A stretch of 64,000 nucleotides of DNA, from positions 2,982,522 through 3,046,521 of the forward strand of contig OX638329.1 in NCBI GenBank assembly GCA_951812755.1, in the 5' to 3' direction. Of this stretch, positions 12,563 to 39,449 are shown piece after piece. The notes under the pieces are model-generated. The model did not search any database, had not been told where the DNA came from, and saw only the letters and a list, made by a program, of their open reading frames with translations. The translations under genes were made by a program, and so were the position numbers. Each line of letters starts with the position of its first letter. The first letter of the stretch is position 1. This DNA comes from an uncultured Latescibacterota bacterium (GTDB taxonomy: Bacteria; Latescibacterota; UBA2968).

Positions 12563-12625
12563 ATCCGCAGAAAAAAACGCGAATAATTTGAGCGTTTTTC
12601 GCAGATGAACGCAGATAAAAAAAGG
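12563..12625. repeat. dispersed intergenic repeat, copy A
   Basis: 'CCGCAGAAAAAAACGCGAATAATTTGAGCGTTTTTCGCAGATGAACGCAGATAAAA' is near-identical to the reverse complement of 33569-33630. Confidence 0.6.
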
Positions 12626-28249: not shown

Positions 28250-31200
28250 CTACCTCCAGAATTTGGCAATCCTCATTGCTTGGCTGATCATTTCGTCCAT
28301 TTGTTCCGAAGATAAATCAATGCCATGTATGTCTTCCACCACATCGTAGAAGAAATCATCAATCTCGTTTTTTACGACATTTTGCGCGTCGCTATCGTTC
28401 CAAAAATCTACCTTCCAATTCCTTTCTATCGCGGTTTGAATGGCAAGCGTTGTTTTTATTGCTATGCCATCGGTCTGGCTTTCATCGATATCAATTTTTG
28501 AGAAACAGGGTTTAATTGCGCCAAAATATGCACAGGCTTCACGATTATTGCGAATCTCGTCGGGCACATCGTCGCGTTGAGAGCTTTCGACCTTATCGCG
28601 AATATCGCTCACCTTTTGCAGATAATCCAGGGCTAATATCCGTTGCTGCCTGAAATCGTCGATTGCCTCCTGAATGAGCTTTGAGAATTTCTCGTAAAAA
28701 GCAGGGTCTTTGTCCATGTTTTCGGTAATCTTGCGCTTGGTTGCATGCGCGATATGGTCGGCGTTTGCCGCTATATTTCGGGTGCGGTAGATGCCTCGCT
28801 CCTCTTTGACCACAGAAAAGGTGTTGTTATCAAAAATATCCACGGGATCGTTTAATTGGGTGACTTCGTTTGCCTGAATATGCGTGTTTAGCAACTTTTT
28901 AATTCGGGTGTCATAGTCGCCGTAATCAATGGCTTCGGCGTAGCGCAGTCTGACAGCCTGTCTCAGTTTCTCAAAACGCAAGAGATCGCTTTTGTAGCGT
29001 TTGAGTTGGGCCTCGTCGGTCTGCATAATGAACTGCTCAGATGAAAGCGCGATGGCAAGGGTTTTGCCGTATTCCGTGAGGCGTTCATAAAAATCTTCCC
29101 GCAATGCGTCATCGGATAGGAGGACTTCGTAGCGTTCTTCATCGCGGGAATTTTTAATTTCTTTGAATATATCCCAGAGGTCCGAGTAACGTTGCGGCAA
29201 TTTTTGTATTTCTTCCTGGATGGAGACCAGGACATTGGCGAGATCCGCTCTGTCAAAATCCGCAAGCGCGTCGTATTCGTTCAGTGCTTTGTCCAGTTCA
29301 CCCAATACATTGGCATAATCAACGACATAGCCAAATTCCTTATTTTCGTGTACGCGATTAACCCGGGCAATAGCCTGGAGCAATGTGTGTTCGCGCAACT
29401 TACGGCACAGATAGAGCACGGTATTGCGAGGCGCGTCAAATCCGGTGATGAGTTTATCTACTACAATCAAAATTTCCGGATCGTCCGCGTGTTTGAACTG
29501 TGCGATGATTTGTTTGTTGTATTGGTCTTCGGAACCATAACGAGCCATCATTTTGTTCCAGAACGCGTTGACCTCATCTGTTTCTTCGCCTACCTCTTCA
29601 TGCCCCTCTCGCGTATCCGGGGGAGAAATAACGACCTCCGATGAAATATCATTTATCTCATTGAAAAATTCTCGATACTTCAGGGCAGTCGCTTTGTTGG
29701 GTGCTACAAGTTGCGCCTTAAATGGGGTGTTCTGCCAGTTTACGCGGTAGTGTGTGCTTATGTCAAATGCGCGCATATAGACGACCTGGTCTGCCTGATT
29801 GAGTGCATCTGCACGGGAATATTTTCTTTTTAAGTCGGCTTTTTGTTGGTCTGTCAGGTTTACCGTATGGCGTTCGAACCACAAATCAACCGCGTTTTCG
29901 TTTTGCTCTATCTCTACATGCCGTCCTTCGTACAGTAGGGGAACCACTGCCTTGTCTTTGATCGCCTGTCGCACGGAATAGTGCGGTTCAATAAGACCTC
30001 CAAATCTAACAAAACTGTTCTTCTCTCTTTTGAGCAATGGCGTACCTGTGAAGCCGATGTAACAAGCATTGGGTAACATCTGCCTCATGCGCGCTGCGAG
30101 AGAACCGAAGTTTGTGCGGTGGCTTTCATCTACGAGGACGACAATATCCGCTGAATCATCAACGTATTTTTCAGCAGAAAGTGCCGTATCAAATTTATTG
30201 ATCAGCGTCGTGATGATACCCACTTTGTTTTTGATGTGTTTGACCAGATTTCGCCCGGTTGTCGCCCGCTCCATGTCCAGGCCACAGGCTGCGAAGGTGT
30301 TGCCCAGTTGTTTATCCAGGTCTTTGCGGTCTGTAACGAGAATCATTCGGGATTTATTCAGTTCGGAGTTCAGAGCCAGAGTACGCGCGAGCATGACCAT
30401 TGTGATGGATTTCCCAGATCCCTGAGTGTGCCAGACAATGCCGCCCTGGCGGCGTCCTGTCTTGTCTATTTGTTTGATGCGATTTATTGCGGAACGAACG
30501 AGAAAGAACTGCTGGTATCGGGCTATTTTCTTACTGCCAAGGTCAAAGACGATAAAGCCGTAAATGAGTTCCAACAGACGCTCTGGACGGCACAGGCTGT
30601 AAAGACATCTATCCTGTTCCGTGAGCAGTCGGTCTCCTGTGCTTTCAAGCGCGGCGAAGTGCGATAGCGCCAGAGCAAAATCGCCGCGGAATAGGGCGTC
30701 TTTGTCTTCAGCGGAAAGGGTTTTATTGATGCTGGCATTCACTTCGTGAGCAGAATCCTCCATTTCGTCCCATAAGCTCCAGAATGCCTTTGAAGTTCCC
30801 ACCGTTGCGTACTTCGCCTCATTTTTGTTTATAGCCAGCAATATTTGTGCGTAAATGAAAAGGCGCGGGATATATTCTTCGCCCTGATTGCGGATTGTTT
30901 GAGATATGGCCTGCTCAACATCCACATCGGAGCCTTTGCATTCGATTACAACAAGGGGAATACCGTTCACGAATAGTATAATGTCGGGCCTTGCGGTTTC
31001 CAGGCTGCGGGTGCGTTCAACAGAAAATTCCGCTGTGGCGTGAAACACATTGTTCGCGGGATTTTTCCAGTCGATATAGTTCAGGGTATAACTTTTGGAA
31101 TCGCTCTCGATGGTTTGTTCAAGTGATGTGCCAAGCGTTATCAGGTCGTAGATTACTTCATTTGTTTTTTGCAGACCATCGTATTGGATATTTTTGATTT

Positions 31201-31438
31201 TCTGAATGGCAGATTGAATATTCTCCTCGCTGAATAGATACAGACCGCCTTTGTAGTGAATGCGGTTTATTTTTTTAAGCTGATCGCGCAAGATGTTTTC
31301 CAGCAGAACATTTGAGGCACGACCACCGCGTTCTACCATCGCCTGCTCGGGGGGCAGATACCGGTAGCCCATGTTAATTAGCTGTTGCAGGGCAGGTATC
31401 TGGGAGAGGTGTTTTTCGCTGAATGGGAAGGTAGGCAT
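28250..31438 (-). CDS. hsdR: type I restriction endonuclease subunit R
   Basis: 1062 aa; helicase motifs ('HTQGSGKS', 'DESHR') and HsdR-like N-terminal nuclease region. Confidence 0.9.
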   Translation of the reverse strand: MPTFPFSEKHLSQIPALQQLINMGYRYLPPEQAMVERGGRASNVLLENILRDQLKKINRIHYKGGLYLFSEENIQSAIQKIKNIQYDGLQKTNEVIYDLITLGTSLEQTIESDSKSYTLNYIDWKNPANNVFHATAEFSVERTRSLETARPDIILFVNGIPLVVIECKGSDVDVEQAISQTIRNQGEEYIPRLFIYAQILLAINKNEAKYATVGTSKAFWSLWDEMEDSAHEVNASINKTLSAEDKDALFRGDFALALSHFAALESTGDRLLTEQDRCLYSLCRPERLLELIYGFIVFDLGSKKIARYQQFFLVRSAINRIKQIDKTGRRQGGIVWHTQGSGKSITMVMLARTLALNSELNKSRMILVTDRKDLDKQLGNTFAACGLDMERATTGRNLVKHIKNKVGIITTLINKFDTALSAEKYVDDSADIVVLVDESHRTNFGSLAARMRQMLPNACYIGFTGTPLLKREKNSFVRFGGLIEPHYSVRQAIKDKAVVPLLYEGRHVEIEQNENAVDLWFERHTVNLTDQQKADLKRKYSRADALNQADQVVYMRAFDISTHYRVNWQNTPFKAQLVAPNKATALKYREFFNEINDISSEVVISPPDTREGHEEVGEETDEVNAFWNKMMARYGSEDQYNKQIIAQFKHADDPEILIVVDKLITGFDAPRNTVLYLCRKLREHTLLQAIARVNRVHENKEFGYVVDYANVLGELDKALNEYDALADFDRADLANVLVSIQEEIQKLPQRYSDLWDIFKEIKNSRDEERYEVLLSDDALREDFYERLTEYGKTLAIALSSEQFIMQTDEAQLKRYKSDLLRFEKLRQAVRLRYAEAIDYGDYDTRIKKLLNTHIQANEVTQLNDPVDIFDNNTFSVVKEERGIYRTRNIAANADHIAHATKRKITENMDKDPAFYEKFSKLIQEAIDDFRQQRILALDYLQKVSDIRDKVESSQRDDVPDEIRNNREACAYFGAIKPCFSKIDIDESQTDGIAIKTTLAIQTAIERNWKVDFWNDSDAQNVVKNEIDDFFYDVVEDIHGIDLSSEQMDEMISQAMRIAKFWR

Positions 31439-31455
31439 TGCATTGTTCCTGTTTT

Positions 31456-31514
31456 ATCCGCAGATGAATATTATCCGCATATGAACGCAGATATTCGCAG
31501 ATAGAGGCAGATAA
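31456..31514. repeat. cluster of CGCAGAT-type motifs in the hsdR upstream region
   Basis: 'CGCAGAT' at 31459, 31486, 31496 and GGCAGAT at 31506 (10-bp spacing for the last three), CGCATAT at 31476. Confidence 0.4.
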
Positions 31515-32018
31515 AATTCTTGTGAAGCTGGAAGATTACGAGCTTATGACTCTGGTCTCTGATTCATCTCGCTTTGGCTGCATCTCCGTTTTCTTACACG
31601 ACTTCTCAATCATTATCGGTCGCTGGCCTATTGCCTTCTAATTGCTGAAAGCAATTTTTGTTGGGGTTGCATATTTAAGAATGTATGCGAGTTTTCGCAA
31701 ATTTCTGCTTTCCAACTCTTTTTTTGTAAACAGTACAAAAAATACTATAAATTCGTCACAGTCGATATATCCCGTGATTTCTTGACAAGGTAACTGATCC
31801 GAAGTCACTACTCTAATATATGTATTTCTTTTATCGGTTCTTTTAGCAATACTTCGGACAGTTTTTAGGTGTAAAGGTTCTTTGAAATCAACAGGTTAGA
31901 TGAGACCCCATGTTTTATTTACAAGTTAGCCCTATACCCTGAGTTTGATAAAAAAACTGACAATTCTATAAACCGTTGTATTATAGAAACTTAGGGTTTT
32001 TGACTAATTGGAAACCTA

Positions 32019-32129
32019 TCAAAAAGTGTCCGAACCATTGTTGGTGTTCAATCCATTTTTAAATTCCATAAATTCACCAAGCTGAACTTCCCGCCATCCC
32101 TTCGGCAACTGCCCATTTTTCACTGTCAT
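32019..32129 (-). pseudogene. orphan N-terminal fragment of an hsdS specificity-subunit gene
   Basis: 'MTVKNGQLPKGWREVQLGEFMEFKNGLN' matches the conserved HsdS N-terminus, then stop; followed by about 500 bp of AT-rich ORF-free DNA. Confidence 0.4.
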
Positions 32130-32166
32130 TCTATTATCCCCTGTTGAACTGTGCAGTACTTCTGGC

Positions 32167-32388
32167 TCACCAACTCTTTCCTTGCAGTTCCTTCGGGAAG
32201 AGCTTGCGGCTGGAGAGCCGGTCTTCATCTAAAACGTGAATAAGGTATTCGAGAGTTTTCCGCTGTTCGTCAGTATCGCCCTCATCCATCCATGACTGGA
32301 CCAACTGCACAAGACCGGCTGCACGGTCATCAGAAGTTTTGCTTTCACTGACAATCTCGGTAGGATTTTCTGAAAGCCTTTTATCCAT
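32167..32388 (-). CDS. hypothetical small acidic protein
   Basis: 73-aa ORF inside the R-M island; no recognisable motif. Confidence 0.2.
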   Translation of the reverse strand: MDKRLSENPTEIVSESKTSDDRAAGLVQLVQSWMDEGDTDEQRKTLEYLIHVLDEDRLSSRKLFPKELQGKSW

Positions 32389-32427
32389 ATCTCTGTCCTC
32401 TCATCTCATCGCTTTTGCCCTCCTGCT

Positions 32428-32775
32428 TTATGTCTTGACCGCCTGCAATTTCTCTGTTTCAGAAATCTCGCATTGTGGCGCGGGCAGTTGGGTGATGATG
32501 TTCGCAATCAGCGTCTCGTCCTTGTTTGACATGGCATTCGCCACATCTTGAGGATTGCTATGCGTCTTTCGCGCAAATTCTCGCGCACCGCCTTGTCCTT
32601 CAACAGCCGCACTGAATCCGTAATAAAGCGCGGCACCATCCGGATCTTTTTCGTGCTCTTCCAATAAGACTTCAAGGAAGGAGAGAGCTTTATCGATATC
32701 CGAAAACTTTTCGATTAAGTAGTCGCGGAAATCTATCATCTGTCTCATCGTTGGGTCTCCTTGTAATTTTGCCAA
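32428..32775 (-). CDS. addiction-module antidote protein (HTH antitoxin)
   Basis: 115 aa; 'AALYYGFSAAVEGQGGAREFARKTHSNPQDVANAMS' antidote-like; directly downstream of and overlapping the toxin gene. Confidence 0.55.
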   Translation of the reverse strand: MAKLQGDPTMRQMIDFRDYLIEKFSDIDKALSFLEVLLEEHEKDPDGAALYYGFSAAVEGQGGAREFARKTHSNPQDVANAMSNKDETLIANIITQLPAPQCEISETEKLQAVKT

Positions 32776-33080
32776 TAGGTTTTTGCGCGTTCAATGTCTC
32801 GCGTTTGGGAAGACTTATCGCCGCCGCAGAGCAACAGGACGATGGTGTTGCCGACTATACCAAAATAGATGCGATAGCCTGCTCCAAAATGGAAACGGGT
32901 TTCAAAAATACCGTCACCGACAGATTTCCAGTCGCCAAAATTGCCGCCCGCAAGACGACCAAGGCGTGCTTGAATCCGGTCCTGCGTTTTTTGATCGCGT
33001 GACTCAAACCATTCGGTGAAAGGCACTCGCCCATTTGAATGCTGGTAAATTTGCAGTTTTCTCGGTTGCGTAGCAAGCAT
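32745..33080 (-). CDS. RelE/ParE-family toxin (addiction-module killer type)
   Basis: 'FHFGAGYRIYFGIVGNTIVLLLCGGDKSSQTRDIERAK' matches the killer-protein C-terminus. Confidence 0.6.
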   Translation of the reverse strand: MLATQPRKLQIYQHSNGRVPFTEWFESRDQKTQDRIQARLGRLAGGNFGDWKSVGDGIFETRFHFGAGYRIYFGIVGNTIVLLLCGGDKSSQTRDIERAKTYWQNYKETQR

Positions 33081-33116
33081 TCTCTATCTGCCCTTTGCCT
33101 GACTCATGGTGCAATT

Positions 33117-33485
33117 TTAGGTCTCGACTGCCTGCAATTTCTCGGTCTCTGTTTCAGATGTCTCGCATTGCGTCGCGGGCAGTTGGGCGATGATGTTCGC
33201 AATCAGCGTCTCGTCTTTGTTTGACATGGCCTGCGCCACGCCTTGAGGATTGCAATGCGTCTTTCGGGCAAATTCTCGCGCACCGCCCTGTCCTTCAACA
33301 GCCGCACTGAATCCGTAATAAAGCGCGGCACTATTCCCGTCTTTTTGGTATTCTTCCAATTCCGTTTGAAGATAGGAGATGGCCTCCTCAAAGTCAGAAA
33401 GCCCTTCGATTAAGTAGTCGCGATAATTTCTCATTTCTCTCATCGTTAGGTCTCCTTGTAGTTTTACCAATAGGTTTTTGCGCAT
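33117..33485 (-). CDS. addiction-module antidote protein, second paralog (orphan)
   Basis: 122 aa, near-identical core to 32428..32775. Confidence 0.55.
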   Translation of the reverse strand: MRKNLLVKLQGDLTMREMRNYRDYLIEGLSDFEEAISYLQTELEEYQKDGNSAALYYGFSAAVEGQGGAREFARKTHCNPQGVAQAMSNKDETLIANIIAQLPATQCETSETETEKLQAVET

Positions 33486-33551
33486 TCAATGTCCCGTGCC
33501 TGCGAAGATTTGTCGCCGCCGCAGAGCAGGAGGACGATTGTGGCATCTGTA
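33486..33551 (-). pseudogene. 3' remnant of a duplicated RelE/ParE-like toxin gene
   Basis: Encodes only '...TIVLLLCGGDKSSQARDIECAKTYW*'; 5' part replaced by repeat copy B. Confidence 0.45.
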
Positions 33552-33568
33552 AATATCTTTTGATTTAG

Positions 33569-33630
33569 CCTTTCATCTGCGTCTATCTGCGAAAAACGCT
33601 CAAATTATTCGCGTTTTTTTCTGCGGATTC
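33569..33630. repeat. dispersed intergenic repeat, copy B (inverted relative to copy A)
   Basis: Reverse complement nearly identical to 12563-12625; supplies the last codons and stop of the RhuM-like gene. Confidence 0.6.
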
Positions 33631-34658
33631 CGACCCAATTGTCGTTCCAATTCTTTAGTTTCTCTATCAAAATCAGATTCAAACAAACGATCCTGAACAA
33701 TTCGGTATTTCTCAAACTCGCTTTCGGCATGGGCTTTGGCAATCTCGGCACTGACTTGTCCGCTGTCTTTCAATATCTGCCGGTCAAAAGCCTCGAGAAA
33801 TATATCGAGGCGTTTTGCCCAGTCCTCCATTGTCATGGGTATCTTGCGCTGTGCCCGGTCTTCGGCGAGGTCAATATAGGCGTTGACGATACGCCCAAGA
33901 GATTCCAGTTCTTCTTTCGACAGGTAGTTCTTTGCGACAGAGACATCAGACTTCAGGATTTTGCCGGTTGGGGCTTTCTCCCAGGTGGCAAGCCCCATGT
34001 GCCGCTGACCGCTATCTGCCCGCTGTTGTATAAATTCCGCCGTAGTATGGCCGTGAATAGCATAATGCAGTTTGTTTTGCACTCTGGCGAAAAACTCGCG
34101 GGTGGTCGGCGCGTCCCTGTTATAATCCATGCTGGTGGTGTAAATGTCGGCGATCTTTTGGTAAAACCGCCGTTCGCTCAGACGAATCTCGCGGATTTCT
34201 TCCAGCAACCGCTCAAAATAGTCCTCGCCGAGAAACGCGCCATTTTCCAACCGCTGCTTATCCAGAACATAGCCTTTGATCGCAAACTCCCGTAAAACCC
34301 GGGTTGCCCATTGGCGAAATTGCGTGGCGCGTCTGGAGTTTACCCGATAACCGACCGAGATGATGGCGTCCAGATTGTAAAAATTGGTAGTGTAGTTTTT
34401 GCCATCAGCGGCAGTATGTGCAAAACTTGCACATACTGAATCCTGGTCTAACTCGTTGTCATTAAAGATATTTTGCAAGTGCTTTGTAATAACTGAGCGA
34501 TCCACGGAAAATAACTCCGCCATGAGTTTTTGTGTCAGCCAAATGGTGTCGTCCTGGTAACGCACTTCAATACTATCTTCACTGGCCTGGTTGGTAAAGA
34601 TCAAAAATTCCGCTGTGCTGCTGCGGATAGTCAGATCTTTTGAGGATCTCTTGCTCAT
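33600..34658 (-). CDS. RhuM-family (Fic/DOC-related) protein
   Basis: 352 aa; 'DAIISVGYRVNSRRATQFRQWATRVL' is characteristic of RhuM; 4-bp overlap with hsdM. Confidence 0.65.
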   Translation of the reverse strand: MSKRSSKDLTIRSSTAEFLIFTNQASEDSIEVRYQDDTIWLTQKLMAELFSVDRSVITKHLQNIFNDNELDQDSVCASFAHTAADGKNYTTNFYNLDAIISVGYRVNSRRATQFRQWATRVLREFAIKGYVLDKQRLENGAFLGEDYFERLLEEIREIRLSERRFYQKIADIYTTSMDYNRDAPTTREFFARVQNKLHYAIHGHTTAEFIQQRADSGQRHMGLATWEKAPTGKILKSDVSVAKNYLSKEELESLGRIVNAYIDLAEDRAQRKIPMTMEDWAKRLDIFLEAFDRQILKDSGQVSAEIAKAHAESEFEKYRIVQDRLFESDFDRETKELERQLGRNPQKKTRII

Positions 34659-36169
34659 GCTCGTTTTACTCCCTCCATTAATCTCCCTATCTCTCCCCGT
34701 ACTACGATTAACTCCTCTTCCAGTCGGTCTATCTCAAGCTGCACTGCATCAATATCAATCTCCTCTTCTTCTTCAAAGGTATCTACATAGCGAGGAATGT
34801 TTAAATTGAAGTCGTTTTCTTCAATTTCTTCAAAGGTGGCGAGGTGGGCGTATTTGTCTATATCCTGGCGTTTTTTATAAGCGGTGGTGATTTTTTCAAT
34901 GTGCTCGTCCAGCAATGCATTTTGATTTTTCCCGGCCTGATATTCGCGGCTTGCATCAATGAACAAGACATCTTTGCGGTTCTCATTTGCTCCCCCTTGT
35001 TCTCGCGAGCGGTCAAAGACCAAGATGGCGACTGGTATTGAGGTCGTGGGGAACAGATTGCCCGGCAAGCCAATGACGACGTCGAGCAAGTTTTCTTCAA
35101 TGAGTTGCTGGCGAATGCGTCCTTCGGCACCACCCCGGAACAAAACACCGTGAGGGACCACAACAGAAACCCGGCCTTGTTTTTCCAAAGCCGCTTCCAC
35201 CATGTGGCTGATAAACGCATAGTCGCCTTTGGATTTGGGAGGCAAACTGCGCCAGAAGCGGTTGTATATGTCTGCCTCGGCGTCTTCCGCGCCCCACTTG
35301 TTAAGTGAAAACGGGGGATTGGCGACTACATTGTCGAATTTCATCAACCGATCGGATTCCACCAGTGCCGGGGCAGTGAGCGTGTTGCACCATTCAATGC
35401 GGGCTGCATCGGCACCGTTTAGAAACATATTCATACGCGCCAATGCCCAGGTGCTGCCGTTCACTTCCATTCCGTAAAGGGCGTGGTTTTTGTCGCCCAC
35501 TACGCGCGCGGCTTCAATGAGAAGACCAGCGGAACCGCAGGCGGGATCACAGATACGGGCGCCGGGTTTGGGCGCGCACAGTTTTGCCACCAGTTCGGAT
35601 ACCTTGTGTGGCGTGTAGAACTCGCCGGCTTTTTTGCCCGCGTCAGATGCGAAGCGTTCAATCAGGTAGATGTAGGTGTTGCCGATCACATCTTCCGAAA
35701 CCCGTCTGGGACTCATATTCAATTCGGGTTTGTTGAAATCTTCCAGCAGTGTTTTTAGACGGCGGTTGCGGTCTCTGGTCCTGCCGAGACTTGTCTCGCT
35801 GTTGAAATCTATATTTCGGAAAACACCTTCCAATTTCTGTTTGTTTTCCGTTTCAACCGCCTCCAGTGCGATGTTGATGAGTTCACCGATATTGGGAGCA
35901 GAGCGCTGTTCATAAAGGTTGTAAAAACTACTGCCATCCGGCAATACAAAACGCTCATTCCTCAGCCTGCGCCTGATGCGTTCATCGTTATCGCCGTATC
36001 GTTTTTTATATTCCTCGTAGTGGTCCTTCCAGACATCGGAAATGTATTTTAGAAACAGCATTACGAGGATGTAGTCCTTATATCCGGCTGCATCCATCAC
36101 GCCGCGAAAGGTGTCGCAGGCAGCCCAGGCAGCGTTGTTGATGTCTTTTTGTTGGATTTGACTGTTCAT
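34655..36169 (-). CDS. hsdM: type I restriction-modification DNA methyltransferase subunit M
   Basis: 504 aa; 'ICDPACGSAGLLIEA' SAM-binding motif and 'NPPF' catalytic motif. Confidence 0.9.
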   Translation of the reverse strand: MNSQIQQKDINNAAWAACDTFRGVMDAAGYKDYILVMLFLKYISDVWKDHYEEYKKRYGDNDERIRRRLRNERFVLPDGSSFYNLYEQRSAPNIGELINIALEAVETENKQKLEGVFRNIDFNSETSLGRTRDRNRRLKTLLEDFNKPELNMSPRRVSEDVIGNTYIYLIERFASDAGKKAGEFYTPHKVSELVAKLCAPKPGARICDPACGSAGLLIEAARVVGDKNHALYGMEVNGSTWALARMNMFLNGADAARIEWCNTLTAPALVESDRLMKFDNVVANPPFSLNKWGAEDAEADIYNRFWRSLPPKSKGDYAFISHMVEAALEKQGRVSVVVPHGVLFRGGAEGRIRQQLIEENLLDVVIGLPGNLFPTTSIPVAILVFDRSREQGGANENRKDVLFIDASREYQAGKNQNALLDEHIEKITTAYKKRQDIDKYAHLATFEEIEENDFNLNIPRYVDTFEEEEEIDIDAVQLEIDRLEEELIVVRGEIGRLMEGVKRA

Positions 36170-36186
36170 ATTTTGTTACTCCATTA

Positions 36187-36492
36187 TTAACGATCACCAC
36201 AGGGTGGATTATATCGATTCCGCAGTTCTGTCTCGATAATAGTACGGTCATCTGAATTACAGTAATAAGCCGCGTAACTCTGATAGGGATAACCTACCGA
36301 TTTCCAACAGTATTTCCGTTCATGATTTTCTACGCGTTTCTTCACATCCTCCGATTCACCTATATCAACAGGCGTCCAGAGTTGATGTATCGTGCGCCGC
36401 CCTAAAATGGCATACACTCCGGATTCATTTCTAAGATCGGATGTATCATCAAGAGGACCTTCAAAGCTGTAACGTCCTATTCCAATAGTCAT
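36187..36492 (-). CDS. small GIY-YIG-like nuclease-domain protein, tentative
   Basis: 'GVYAILG...VDIGESEDVKKRVENHER...E...N' fits GIY/YIG/R/E/N spacing; start set to internal Met 36492. Confidence 0.35.
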   Translation of the reverse strand: MTIGIGRYSFEGPLDDTSDLRNESGVYAILGRRTIHQLWTPVDIGESEDVKKRVENHERKYCWKSVGYPYQSYAAYYCNSDDRTIIETELRNRYNPPCGDR

Positions 36493-36688
36493 GTCAATAA
36501 CTCCTATTTTATAGGGGTGATTTAAGGATGCGAATAAAGAGTAGAAATCATGGCACAATGACAAACAAAACCTTTCTGGATTGCGGCTAAAAACGTGCCG
36601 CAATGACAGGTGCTATTCCCATCGTCACGCCTGCATGCCTTAAGCAGGCGTCCAGAATAGGGAAGGTGCTCTGAACTCTTTAATGGCA

Positions 36689-37270
36689 TTAAGGTTTTTC
36701 AGATTCATTTAACAATCGCATCTGAATTGTTTTGACCAGTTTTTCCTTTTGCTCTGCCAAATTTTTCATCAGCCTTTGTTCCTTATTTAACAAATCGGCA
36801 AGGGCGACGATTTGTTCTTGTATTTCCAGATTGGGGAGAGGGATTTCCAGAGCATCAAGAGCGGATTTGCCTATCATGGTCATTATCGTTCCGGTCGCCC
36901 TGCTGTGTAAAAATGCTTGTGATGAGGATAGGTTGATACACCAACAAAGATATTCCGGTAGAACATTTTTGCTTGTGACGCGGATCAAGAATAGCGGGGC
37001 CGAGACAACCGTCCGTCCGGGTTCCTTATCAATGATTGTCGCCGTAGTAGTTTTGCCTCGGGAGCGGAAAACCAAATCTTTGCATTCGACCAGATGGCGC
37101 TCATTGATGCCGTTTATATTAATGGTCATTAGGTTGCCATAATCCAATTTATCTTCGATTAGATCGCGCATCTGAATGACAGCCACATTCCCATCTGCTT
37201 CCGGCTCAATACGGGAACGAAAGGAGAGGCCCATCTGAACAAGAGCGATGTCTTTGAGCTTGTATTTCAT
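36689..37270 (-). CDS. hsdS: type I R-M specificity subunit S, short single-TRD form
   Basis: C-terminal 'LPNLEIQEQIVALADLLNKEQRLMKNLAEQKEKL' is the conserved HsdS coiled-coil; about 193 aa from ATG 37270. Confidence 0.75.
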   Translation of the reverse strand: MKYKLKDIALVQMGLSFRSRIEPEADGNVAVIQMRDLIEDKLDYGNLMTININGINERHLVECKDLVFRSRGKTTTATIIDKEPGRTVVSAPLFLIRVTSKNVLPEYLCWCINLSSSQAFLHSRATGTIMTMIGKSALDALEIPLPNLEIQEQIVALADLLNKEQRLMKNLAEQKEKLVKTIQMRLLNESEKP

Positions 37271-37414
37271 AATTACTGGTAAAATATAAAAGTTGCCAGT
37301 TGTGGGAGAAATTATATTACAGAAAAGCCTTTCCTGCAATATAAAGAAAAAAATTCCACTCTGTCAAGTGAAAGTCTTCATTTAGCCGCGAATTGGCGTC
37401 CTGTTCAGATCCCT

Positions 37415-37547
37415 CGCCTTCATCTGCGTCTATCTGCGTTCAGGCTCAAATGAACTGCTGTCACAGTTGTAAACAGCTCACTCGCCTTCATTCTGTGGAC
37501 CCTTTGGGTTTTGCCTTTCATCTGCGCCCATCTGCGAAAAACGCTCA
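37415..37547. repeat. degenerate CGCAGAT-motif repeats plus left half of repeat copy C
   Basis: 'CATCTGCGTCTATCTGCG' at 37421-37438 and 'CATCTGCGCCCATCTGCGAAAAACGCTCA' at 37519-37547. Confidence 0.5.
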
Positions 37548-37735
37548 GAGACTGTTTTAAAACTCATTTTGCCCCTTCTCAGCTATGCGCTATTGCACTG
37601 TCATTCTGAGCGGAGCGCAGCGGAGTCGAAGAATCTCTTGCCAACTCAGGTGGAAAAGATGCTTCGGCTACGCTCAGCATGACAAAACGCCGAACATCCG
37701 TAGCATCAGGTATTAATTTTAAAACAGCTTCTCAG
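37548..37735. mobile_element. MITE-like insertion (~185 bp) splitting repeat copy C
   Basis: Imperfect terminal inverted repeats GAGACTGTTTTAAAA / TTTTAAAACAGCTTCTC; flanking CTCAGA on both sides; internal palindrome GTCATTCTGAGCG / CGCTCAGCATGAC. Confidence 0.35.
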
Positions 37736-37760
37736 ATTATTCGCGTTTTTTTCTGCGGAT
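37734..37760. repeat. right half of repeat copy C
   Basis: 'CAGATTATTCGCGTTTTTTTCTGCGGAT' contributes '...IRRKKRE*' and the stop of the sulfatase gene. Confidence 0.5.
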
Positions 37761-39449
37761 CAGCATCACGCGCCGCACATCCATTACCTGTGAATTGGAT
37801 ACGTCAAGGGCGCGCAAGGTCAGGGTTCCTCTACCCGCGTTTAGCTGGATTGTTCCCAGTGTCAATGGCTCGAAATCCTTTACATAAGACTCGCCTCCAC
37901 GCGGATAGCGGTCATCCGCTGCGCCGATTTGTGGTGGGTCGTGTGCGTCGGTTACCTGTCCTTGCACTTTTGTTGCTTGACCTTGCGCGGGGTGAAATGC
38001 CAACTCGACGGTTGATCCCACATCTTCTTCTGGGCAGGTATAATAAACCGCCGCTTCATAATCGCCCGTTGTGCCGACCTCAATATCCCAGGTCATCCGA
38101 TCACCAACTTGTGTCCAGTGCGTAAAATAAGAACAGTTGGGCGCGCCGGCACTGCGCTGGACTGTGCCGTGATGCACCCCGTCTCGTGCGGGCAAGCGAG
38201 TCGTTTTCCAGTAGCCTGTGGCAAAGGGACGGTCGTCGTTGACGGGCAAGACTTCGGCGTGGAATTTTGCTGTTGCATCTGATAATTCCGCATGGACATC
38301 AGGGTATTCTTGCGATACATCTGTTGTCTGTCCACCATCGGCGCCCATATCGTATAACTTGCCCTCTATGTCCAATCGGAATCGCTGATTGCGCGCGCTC
38401 AATTGCGCCCGCTGATGTGACAAGATGATGCGGTCAGACCATTCGACATCTTCGCCCAATAGCAGGGGTTTGAGGCTGCGACCATCCAGCGGCTTTTCAA
38501 CTTTCAGGTCGATATCCGCAAGGTCGGCAAATGTGGGCAATAAATCAATCGCTCCGGCGATTTCTTCAATGACTGTACCAGCCTGGATATGCCCTTTCCA
38601 GCGCATCAAGCCCGCCACGCGCACGCCGCCTTCATCTGTTGATCCTTTTGTGCCTTTCATCCCGCCATTCCAGCGCGCGCCATTGGGACCATTATCTCCA
38701 AAATAAAATACAATGGTATCTTCCGCGATTTCCAACTCATCGAGTTTGTCCAGCAATCGCCCCACGTTCCAATCGATATTTTCGCATAGAGCCAGTGCCG
38801 CCCGCGTGCGTTCTATCTCTTCTTGATTGGGGTTGGTCGCCAGCATCTCAATCGGTTTATCGCGGAATGGATCGTAAAATCGGTCGGGCACCTGAAATGG
38901 GGTGTGCGGGATATTGTAGGGAAGATAACAGAAGAACGGTTGATCCCGTTCGACATTTGCCGCCATAAAATCCATGGCGCGATCTGTACACTCATCGGGT
39001 AAGTATCCCTTTCCTCGCGTGAGTTCGCCATTGTGTTCGAGTTCGGCATCGAAATATTGCCCCCAGTGTCCGGAACAGAACCCAAAAAACTCGTCAAATC
39101 CCCGCGCGTTCGGATGATAGGGATGCTGCGTGCCATTGTGCCACTTGCCATAAGCTCCCGTGGCGTATCCGGCGGCTTTGAACACATCGGCAATGGTTGT
39201 TTCATCGAGGTTCAGTCGTTCGGCGCCGGTGCTTACGCCGTGGACACCGCCGCGCAGATGATAGCGACCCGTCAAAAACTCTGCCCGCGTGGGCGCGCAT
39301 ACCGGGCAGACGTAAAACCGGTCGAATAGGGCGCCATCTCGTGCGAGAGAATCCACATTGGGTGTGTTGAGATTTGTATTGCCGTGTACACTCAAATCGC
39401 CCCAACCCTGATCGTCGGTCAAGATCACGAGAATATTTGGTCTGGTCAT
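37737..39449 (-). CDS. sulfatase
   Basis: '[15 protein letters not shown]' formylglycine motif; 'LTDDQGWGD' N-terminus; ~150-aa C-terminal extension. Confidence 0.85.

What the first reader, a model, noticed from the sequence alone, without database searches (positions are those of the whole stretch)
32428..33560. Tandem toxin-antitoxin duplication leaving an orphan antitoxin and a toxin stub
A complete RelE/ParE-like toxin plus antidote pair (32428-33080) is followed by a second antidote paralog (33117-33485). Upstream of that paralog only the last ~22 codons of a toxin copy survive (33486-33551), ending in a premature stop and abutting repeat copy B. An orphan antitoxin could neutralise the neighbouring or incoming toxin.
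Basis: seen in the sequence. Interest (0 to 1): 0.45.

Follow-up and report, generated by a model that had tools for sequence, protein, structure and literature searches.

The report
Decayed toxin-antitoxin array in restriction operon
Two old, diverged copies of a toxin-antitoxin gene pair sit inside a restriction-modification operon of a Latescibacterota genome, and one copy lost most of its toxin long ago but kept an intact antitoxin; this is an ordinary kind of decay that recurs at the same site in many related genomes.

Summary
The complete pair is toxin 32745-33080 and antidote 32428-32748, both on the minus strand. It is followed by a second antidote (true CDS 33117-33443, 108 aa). Upstream of that lies a toxin remnant (33440-33542) covering codons 79-111, with two in-frame stops. 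The two copies align over 427 nt at 83.6% identity (E=2e-132).

The toxin is a TIGR02683 (HI1419-type) RelE/ParE protein. The antidote hits no Pfam or NCBIfam model directly, but profile comparison shows it is a divergent HI1420-type HTH antidote (hhalign 99.6%).

"Tandem duplication in this genome" is not the best reading. These are old paralogous units of a 2-3 unit array. The array occupies the variable slot between hsdM/rhuM and hsdS of a type I R-M locus conserved across Candidatus Latescibacterota. The orphan's orthologue is paired with an intact toxin in other species. The rhuM-repeat/toxin-stub junction is shared with a second species (hsdM dS 0.39), so the scar is inherited and not an assembly artefact.

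At least seven independent toxin deletions occur in related loci. Most keep the antidote's ribosome-binding region.

Verdict: a new member of a known kind, of low to moderate interest. The most unusual side observation is an in-frame antidote::HsdS fusion in related genomes.

The parts
32745..33080 (-). Toxin T1, intact, 111 aa. RelE/ParE superfamily, HI1419-type.
   Evidence: TIGR02683 scores 113.5 bits against a cutoff of 62.85, E=4.4e-33. Pfam Gp49 is weak, E=1.3e-4. It is 98% identical to L001 T.
32428..32748 (-). Antidote A1, 106 aa, cognate partner of T1. Divergent HI1420-type HTH antidote.
   Evidence: Its start overlaps the T1 stop (ATGA). It has no direct Pfam or NCBIfam hit. hhalign of its family against PF21716 members gives 99.6%, E=1e-24. 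The AF2 model has six helices, pLDDT 81.7.
33081..33116 (-). 36-nt spacer between the two units.
   Evidence: Spacers of the same length, 36 nt, separate units in L004 and L022. No promoter-like or terminator-like site lies in the spacers or at the unit boundaries.
33117..33443 (-). Orphan antidote A2, intact, 108 aa. It is 74% aa identical to A1 and is the orthologue of the second-unit antidote of L012 and L022.
   Evidence: It carries unique substitutions S64C and D68G at near-invariant positions.
33440..33542 (-). Toxin remnant, codons 79-111 of a lost unit-2 toxin, with two in-frame TAA stops (33464-33466 and 33446-33448). It retains the AAGGAG Shine-Dalgarno sequence of A2.
   Evidence: Every alignment to a toxin gene ends at 33542.
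33543..33555 (.). 13-nt junction filler between the repeat and the toxin remnant.
   Evidence: The same junction sequence is present in L008.
33556..33628 (.). Repeat ('copy B'). It contains the decamer motif CGCAGAT(A/G)GAC and the last 10 codons of rhuM. Copies lie at 37478-37549 plus 37731-37761, and inverted at 31482-31516.
33600..34658 (-). RhuM-family gene (352 aa), the cassette whose 3' flank forms the deletion junction.
   Evidence: PF13310, E=8.5e-108.
32167..32388 (-). Conserved small ORF o73 (73 aa) downstream of the array. No family hit.
   Evidence: It is present in 15 of the related loci, at variable positions.
32031..32129 (-). hsdS N-terminal remnant (about 36 codons). The rest is replaced by AT-rich non-coding DNA (31530-32030).
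   Evidence: tblastn to the L001 HsdS covers residues 1-36 only.
34655..36169 (-). hsdM, upstream boundary of the variable slot.
28250..31438 (-). hsdR, downstream boundary of the locus.

Best explanation
The region is the decayed remnant of an old multi-unit array of HI1419/HI1420-type type II toxin-antitoxin modules. Each unit has a RelE/ParE-fold toxin first, followed by an HTH antidote. The array sits in the variable slot between hsdM (+rhuM) and hsdS of a chromosomal type I restriction-modification operon in a Candidatus Latescibacterota genome.

The distal unit (T1-A1) is intact. The proximal unit lost toxin codons 1-78 in an ancient deletion or cassette replacement. The other edge of that event is the 3' repeat of the rhuM cassette. 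What remains of the toxin is a pseudogene fragment that is decaying, except for the roughly 45 nt that carry the antidote's Shine-Dalgarno and start region.

The orphan antidote has stayed intact. Because units are separated by only 36 nt, with no promoter or terminator signals there, it is probably co-transcribed with hsdM-rhuM and T1-A1 (inferred).

Toxin loss with antidote retention is the expected asymmetric outcome: losing a toxin is harmless, while losing an antidote alone is lethal. The most likely residual role of the orphan (inferred, not shown) is as a spare HTH antidote or repressor. It could add neutralising or repressing capacity for the neighbouring unit, or give immunity to the lost toxin type, which still circulates at this same locus in related strains.
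For: Shown:
- Family assignment of T and of A.
- Copy alignment.
- Mosaic identity between the copies: 63% over A codons ~10-35 and 93-100% over codons 37-95.
- The same sulfatase - half-hsdS - hsdM - slot - hsdS - hsdR locus in most of about 20 Latescibacterota loci (a few lack one or more of these genes within the fetched span), holding 0-3 T-A units plus PDDEXK_3, RhuM and o73 cassettes.
- Full 3-unit arrays in L004 and L022.
- The window's orphan is orthologous to unit 2 of L012 and L022, where it has an intact toxin.
- The rhuM-repeat|stub junction is identical in L008, while hsdM dS between the two genomes is 0.39.
- The stub carries 2 stops in the window and a 1-nt deletion in L008, yet the A ORF is intact in both.
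- At least 7 different toxin-deletion junctions occur in other loci, and most keep 20-45 nt upstream of the A start, including AAGGAG.
- T and A variable segments covary across 17 pairs, which supports a physical T-A partnership.
- Orphan dN/dS is 0.23-0.49.
- No sigma70-like promoter or terminator lies in the spacers or at the unit boundaries of the array.

Literature: orphan antitoxins are abundant and are attributed to degrading TA pairs or anti-addiction (PMC7192599). TA homologues are embedded in a type I R-M locus (PMC6265443). Toxins are embedded in R-M operons, and RhuM is a predicted toxin (PMC3710099).
Against: - No toxicity, neutralisation or expression data exist for any member.
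- The orphan has two unique substitutions (S64C, D68G) at near-invariant positions of the putative recognition helix.
- The closest relatives (L001 and L002; L002 is 99% nt identical over T1-A1) have deleted this antidote entirely. The orphan may therefore be dispensable or on its way to decay.
- The promoter scan uses an E. coli-type consensus that may not apply to Latescibacterota.
- Gene conversion from intact paralogues, rather than selection, could keep the orphan ORF open.
Confidence: 0.78

Rival explanations
1. Recent in-situ tandem duplication of one TA pair, followed by truncation of one toxin.
For: The two units are adjacent, in the same orientation and alignable end to end. A 100%-identical stretch of about 60-70 nt lies in the middle of the antidote genes.
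Against: Overall DNA identity is only 83.6%, and dS between the copies is 0.39, as large as hsdM divergence between species. Each copy has closer orthologues in other species than its neighbour. The truncation scar is shared with L008. The near-identical core is better explained by gene conversion or constraint.
Confidence: 0.05
2. Assembly artefact: a collapsed or chimeric assembly of two full TA units.
For: This is a repeat-rich locus in what is probably a metagenome-derived genome. No exact copy of the orphan protein was found in the protein collection.
Against: At 16% divergence the copies are too different to collapse. The same junction, base for base apart from point differences, occurs in an independently assembled complete chromosome of another species (L008, OZ244847.1).
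Confidence: 0.02
3. The orphan antidote is a functionless relic that simply has not yet been inactivated, or is kept open only by gene conversion from neighbouring copies.
For: There are unique S64C and D68G changes at near-invariant positions. dN/dS against its closest orthologue is about 0.5 in the C-terminal half. L001 and L002 have deleted it. The mosaic identity pattern suggests recurrent conversion.
Against: The scar predates a split with hsdM dS 0.39. The 103-nt stub has acquired 2 stops (window) or a frameshift (L008), while the 327-nt antidote ORF is intact in both. In most of more than 10 related loci orphan antidotes keep an intact ORF and a retained SD.
Confidence: 0.25
4. The 'antidote' is primarily an accessory or regulatory module of the type I R-M system, either a controller-like HTH or an HsdS-associated domain. 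In this view the toxin is a restriction-coupled effector rather than a classic addiction module.
For: The close family is found only at this hsd locus in Latescibacterota. The antidote domain is fused in frame to the HsdS N-terminus in L012-L015, L022, P0057 and P0059. In L012 and L022 an intact, type-matched toxin lies immediately upstream. Units lack their own promoters. PrrC/EcoprrI is a precedent for a toxin held in check by Hsd proteins (PMC3710099).
Against: T and A belong to the standard HI1419/HI1420 TA families. In the window the antidotes are free-standing and hsdS is truncated, so no such coupling can operate here. Fusions could be neutral products of the frequent deletions at this locus, although they are conserved across several species.
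Confidence: 0.15

Closest known systems
HI1419/HI1420-type type II TA modules (TIGR02683 toxin / TIGR02684 = PF21716 antidote; RelE/ParE-Gp49 superfamily, HigBA-like gene order)
   Same: The toxin scores well above the TIGR02683 cutoff. The gene order is toxin first with overlapping stop and start. The antidote is about 100 aa, all-helical, with a C-terminal XRE-like HTH pattern. Profile-profile homology to PF21716 members is 99.6%.
   Different: The antidote is too divergent to hit PF21716 or TIGR02684 directly, even at E=10. It forms a narrow Latescibacterota-specific subfamily (55 clusters at 90% identity). Units are arrayed with 36-nt spacers inside another operon instead of having their own autoregulated promoter.
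Orphan antitoxins / degraded TA pairs (e.g. the Klebsiella survey, PMC7192599; the anti-addiction concept)
   Same: An intact antitoxin sits next to a deleted or pseudogenised toxin in the original genomic context. The proposed roles are the same: relic, cross-neutralisation or anti-addiction.
   Different: Here the same site shows at least 7 independent toxin deletions across species, most of which preserve the antidote's translation-initiation region. One scar is traceable across a species split.
TA homologues and toxins embedded in type I R-M loci (pneumococcal tvr locus tvrAT, PMC6265443; PrrC in EcoprrI and RhuM/Doc/HEPN genes in R-M operons, PMC3710099)
   Same: TA-type genes lie between hsdM and hsdS/hsdR, next to a RhuM-family gene. 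The slot is a hot spot of rearrangement.
   Different: The TA family is different (RelE/ParE + HTH rather than Phd-Doc or HEPN). No recombinase gene lies in the slot. The arrangement is multi-copy arrays rather than a single pair. In relatives the antidote is fused to HsdS, which I did not find described in the three targeted literature searches made here.

Membership tests
HI1419/HI1420 type II TA module | Toxin matches TIGR02683 (upstrm_HI1419, RelE/ParE family) above the curated cutoff | tested here: met
   113.5 bits against a cutoff of 62.85, E=4.4e-33, covering residues 18-105.
HI1419/HI1420 type II TA module | Antidote matches TIGR02684 / PF21716 (dnstrm_HI1420) directly | tested here: not met
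   Neither window antidote hits Pfam or NCBIfam, even at E=10.
HI1419/HI1420 type II TA module | Antidote is homologous to the dnstrm_HI1420 family by profile methods | tested here: met
   A profile search found intermediates that match PF21716/TIGR02684. hhalign of A2 against A3 (12 of 15 members are PF21716) gives 99.6%, E=1.1e-24, over residues 1-96.
HI1419/HI1420 type II TA module | Toxin-first bicistron with coupled (overlapping) stop and start | tested here: met
   ATGA overlap at 32745-32748, with AAGGAG upstream. The same arrangement holds in all 17 complete pairs of related loci.
HI1419/HI1420 type II TA module | Toxin arrests growth and the antidote neutralises it by direct binding | not testable with these tools
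   Only indirect support: covariation of T residues ~25-53 with A residues ~5-54 across pairs.
HI1419/HI1420 type II TA module | Own promoter/operator autoregulated by the antidote | tested here: inconclusive
   No sigma70-like promoter upstream of either unit, and 36-nt spacers. The consensus may not apply to this phylum.
Orphan antitoxin (degraded TA pair) | Intact antitoxin ORF whose adjacent cognate toxin is deleted or disrupted | tested here: met
   A2 is 108 aa and intact. The toxin is reduced to codons 79-111 with two stops.
Recent tandem duplication | Copies are each other's closest relatives and nearly identical | tested here: not met
   83.6% nt identity and dS 0.39 between the copies. 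The orphan is closest to L012/L022 unit 2 (dS 0.09).
R-M-coupled toxin (PrrC/EcoprrI-like guard) | Toxin gene embedded in the hsd operon | tested here: met
   The array lies between hsdM/rhuM and hsdS in the window and in the great majority of related loci.
R-M-coupled toxin (PrrC/EcoprrI-like guard) | Toxin held inactive by an Hsd subunit | tested here: not met
   In the window the antidotes are free-standing and hsdS is truncated. A::HsdS fusions exist only in relatives (L012-L015, L022).
R-M-coupled toxin (PrrC/EcoprrI-like guard) | Activation by phage anti-restriction factors | not testable with these tools
   No experimental system is available.

The most novel reading that the evidence does not exclude
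In this Latescibacterota lineage the HI1419/HI1420 units may not be plain addiction modules. They may form a restriction-coupled toxin system. In several species the last unit's antidote domain is translationally fused to the N-terminus of HsdS, directly downstream of an intact toxin of the matching type. The specificity subunit of the type I enzyme would then itself sequester a RelE/ParE toxin, and would release it when the R-M complex is lost, degraded or attacked by anti-restriction proteins. This is a PrrC/EcoprrI-like logic built from a different toxin. The free and orphan antidotes of the array, including the window's, would then tune or insulate that trigger.
Probability: 0.12. Interest if true: 0.7.

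Novelty: new member of a known kind. Interest (0 to 1): 0.3.

Why it matters
For the window itself it matters little. It is a well-documented example of how chromosomal TA arrays decay: toxin first, antidote and its ribosome-binding site last. It also adds a divergent, currently unannotated HI1420-type antidote subfamily that curated models miss.

The comparative picture is more useful. A single syntenic slot in a type I R-M operon, sampled across about 20 Latescibacterota genomes, records many independent toxin deletions, mosaic antidotes and covarying toxin/antidote specificity segments. This is a natural data set for studying TA specificity evolution and orphan-antitoxin retention. The antidote::HsdS fusions in relatives would be worth an experiment, because they hint at a physical link between a TA toxin and a restriction complex.

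Tried and rejected
- Direct Pfam and NCBIfam scans of both antidotes, o73 and ORF138 at E<=10 found nothing useful.
- PDB sequence searches with the antidote profile and with the toxin returned only designed helical repeats, TPR proteins and MglB at weak E-values, judged non-homologous.
- Exact-protein look-ups of T1 and of the orphan, in both the 108-aa and 122-aa versions, found no record. The source assembly itself could not be retrieved.
- An Rfam scan of 31000-38000 at E<=0.1 gave no RNA family.
- The promoter/terminator scan found no promoter upstream of either unit and no terminator at a unit boundary; its single minus-strand terminator-like site lies inside the T1 coding sequence.
- I considered that the 122-aa ORF (ATG 33485) is the real orphan gene. 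I rejected this because its first 14 codons are an out-of-frame reading of the toxin remnant, and all homologues start at the downstream ATG.
- I considered predicting a T-A complex with a linker construct.

Full report
**1. What is in the sequence**

All relevant genes are on the minus strand. Reading 5'->3' on that strand, the order is as follows:

- sulfatase (39449-37737)
- a repeat-rich spacer
- a half-size hsdS (37339-36689)
- ORF138
- hsdM (36169-34655)
- a RhuM-family gene (34658-33600)
- a 73-nt repeat (33628-33556)
- a toxin remnant (33542-33440)
- antidote A2 (33443-33117)
- a 36-nt spacer
- toxin T1 (33080-32745)
- antidote A1 (32748-32428)
- small ORF o73 (32388-32167)
- the first ~36 codons of hsdS (32129-32031)
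- about 500 nt of AT-rich non-coding DNA
- hsdR (31438-28250)

The two TA units align over 427 nt (33116-33542 against 32427-32847) at 83.6% identity with one gap, E=2.5e-132.

The remnant corresponds to T1 codons 79-111, with 89 of 106 nt identical. It reads ATIVLLLCGGDKSSQARDIECAKTYW*NYKET*R*, with two CAA->TAA changes.

The real start is the ATG at 33443. It is preceded by AAGGAG, and every homologue begins there.

**2. What the genes are**

T1 is a TIGR02683 (upstrm_HI1419) RelE/ParE-family toxin, scoring 113.5 bits against a cutoff of 62.85.

The antidotes match nothing in Pfam or NCBIfam, even at E=10. Their close family is tiny: 55 clusters among 5.8 billion proteins, all unnamed.

A profile search of 1.84 billion representatives found 308 clusters. 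Some of these hits are TPR proteins rather than antidotes. Intermediates among the hits match PF21716/TIGR02684 (dnstrm_HI1420 antidote) and HTH_3.

hhalign between the window family and these intermediates gives 99.6% probability, E=1e-24, over residues 1-96.

The antidote is thus a divergent HI1420-type HTH antidote, the canonical partner of the HI1419-type toxin.

**3. Comparative context**

The family occurs essentially only in Candidatus Latescibacterota MAGs. There it is almost always found in the same locus: sulfatase, half-hsdS, hsdM, slot, hsdS, hsdR.

The slot holds variable combinations of PDDEXK_3, RhuM (full or fragment), o73 and 0-3 T-A units.

L004 and L022 carry three complete units.

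The window's stretch from stub through A1 aligns best (89.8%) to units 1-2 of L004. By specificity type it is collinear with units 2-3 of L022 and L012.

The orphan A2 is nearly identical in its N-terminal half to the unit-2 antidote of L012 and L022 (dS ~0; overall dS 0.09). In those genomes that antidote has an intact toxin of the RLESGYFIDCKS type. Against its own neighbour A1, the orphan's dS is 0.39, which is similar to hsdM divergence between species (0.26-0.46).

The two units are therefore old paralogues, not a duplication made in this genome.

**4. How the toxin was lost**

Every alignment to a toxin ends at 33542. Thirteen nucleotides further on begins the repeat that forms the 3' flank of the rhuM cassette.

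The same junction is present in L008, a complete chromosome of another species, with only point differences...GATGAAAGGCTAAATCAAAAGrTATyyACAGATGmm|nnnATCGTCCTCCTGCTCTGCG.... There the stub carries a 1-nt deletion instead of stop codons.

The truncation therefore predates the split of these lineages. It is not an assembly artefact.

Other loci show different scars:

- a RhuM fragment joined at toxin codon ~96 (L005, L006)
- a repeat joined at codon ~100 (L010, L011)
- o73 joined about 30 nt upstream of the A start (L012, L015)
- RhuM running directly into A codon 4 (L003, L007)
- a toxin broken into pieces (L003, third unit)
- an o73-5'::A-3' chimera upstream of T in L001 and L002, which have lost the window's orphan altogether

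No orphan toxin was seen in any locus.

Most orphan antidotes keep 20-45 nt of toxin 3' sequence including AAGGAG. The exceptions are L003 and L007, where RhuM runs into A codon 4, and the first antidote of L013. This fits selection on translation initiation of the antidote.

**5. Function of the orphan**

The ORF is intact in both lineages that share the scar, while the three-fold shorter stub has been hit in both. dN/dS is 0.23-0.49. This argues for some constraint.

Gene conversion is an alternative. Identity between the window copies is mosaic, at 63% over A codons ~10-35 and 93-100% over codons 37-95.

Across 17 complete pairs, toxin residues ~25-40 covary with antidote residues ~5-33, and toxin residues ~41-53 covary with antidote residues ~34-54, with one exception type.

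The orphan shares the second segment with A1, the cognate antidote of the neighbouring T1, but not the first. Cross-neutralisation of T1 is therefore possible but undecided.

The orphan also carries S64C and D68G at near-invariant positions of the putative recognition helix. Its closest relatives, L001 and L002, have deleted it. It may therefore be dispensable.

The 36-nt spacers, and the absence of promoter-like or terminator-like sites in the spacers or at the unit boundaries, suggest co-transcription with hsdM-rhuM. This is inferred, and the consensus may not apply to this phylum.

**6. Comparison with known systems**

All of the following are described in the literature:

- orphan antitoxins and degrading TA pairs (PMC7192599)
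- TA homologues inside a type I R-M locus (the tvr locus, PMC6265443)
- toxins such as PrrC, Doc and the predicted toxin RhuM embedded in R-M operons (PMC3710099)

The window is a new member of these known kinds.

**7. Most unusual side observation**

In L012-L015 and L022, and in the metagenomic proteins P0057 and P0059, the antidote domain (residues 1-~95) is fused in frame to the N-terminus of a full HsdS. In L012 and L022 an intact toxin of the matching specificity type lies immediately upstream.

This suggests a restriction-coupled toxin, analogous in logic to PrrC/EcoprrI. It does not apply to the window, where hsdS is truncated. I give it low probability as a functional system, but it would be interesting if true.

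**8. Verdict**

- Observation: confirmed.
- Interpretation: partly supported. It is an orphan antidote plus a toxin stub, but the array is ancient and the deletion scar is inherited, so this is not a recent tandem duplication.
- Novelty: new member of a known kind.
- Interest: 0.3.

Noticed in passing
L022 6364-8207; L012 8364-~10150; L013 8001-; L014 8281-; L015 8001-; proteins P0057, P0059: The HI1420-type antidote domain (about 95 aa) is fused in frame to the N-terminus of a full-length HsdS (for example 503 aa in L022). In L012 and L022 an intact, type-matched toxin gene overlaps its start. This may be a physical link between a RelE/ParE toxin and a type I restriction complex.
   Followed up: partly
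window 37544-37735: An insertion of about 190 nt with imperfect 24-nt terminal inverted repeats (MITE-like) splits the repeat downstream of the sulfatase gene. Uninterrupted versions of that repeat are at window 33556-33628 and L001 1601-1673.
   Followed up: partly
window 31530-32129: hsdS is cut after about 36 codons and followed by about 500 nt of AT-rich (GC 0.38-0.40) non-coding DNA with no match in any related locus. The relative L001 has a full hsdS, DUF3800 and AAA_14/DUF4143 genes there. The only other S gene in this locus is the half-size hsdS upstream of hsdM.
   Followed up: partly
window 33572-33591, 37419-37438, 37517-37536, 31496-31515 (inverted), 12600-12619: A short decamer-type repeat, CGCAGAT(A/G)GAC (2-3 tandem copies), marks the boundaries of cassettes in the hsd slot: after the sulfatase, hsdM and rhuM genes and before hsdR, in the window and in related loci. 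It also occurs once elsewhere in the window. Its role is unknown; it could be a recombination hot spot, an operator or a genome-wide intergenic repeat.
   Followed up: partly
window 32167-32388; L001 5560-5640: o73 is a conserved 73-aa ORF with no family hit. It occupies different positions in the slot in different genomes. L001 and L002 carry a chimeric scar, o73 codons ~1-15 joined to the last ~12 codons of an antidote, upstream of their single toxin gene.
   Followed up: partly
window 36689-37339 and all related loci: A half-size hsdS (194-216 aa, single target-recognition domain) is conserved upstream of hsdM, in addition to the full-length hsdS downstream of the slot.
   Followed up: no
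antidote residues 1-55 (window 32584-32748 and 33279-33443): The N-terminal half of the antidote profile attracts TPR proteins and designed helical-repeat proteins in sequence searches: PDB hits to RPAP3 TPR and CTPR designs, and TPR proteins among the representative-search hits. This suggests a TPR-like helical hairpin in front of the HTH.
   Followed up: no
17 T-A pairs in WIN, L001, L003-L005, L008, L009, L011, L012, L016, L017, L022: Toxin segment ~41-53 (types RLAGGNFGDWKS, RxERGYFIDCKS, RLERGNVGDSKS and RLVGGNFGDxxS) covaries with antidote segment ~34-54 (types KDPDGAALYYGFSAAVEGQGG, KDGYGDVLYLAYETAIKAQGG and others). One recombinant exception type exists, and the window's orphan belongs to it.
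   Followed up: partly
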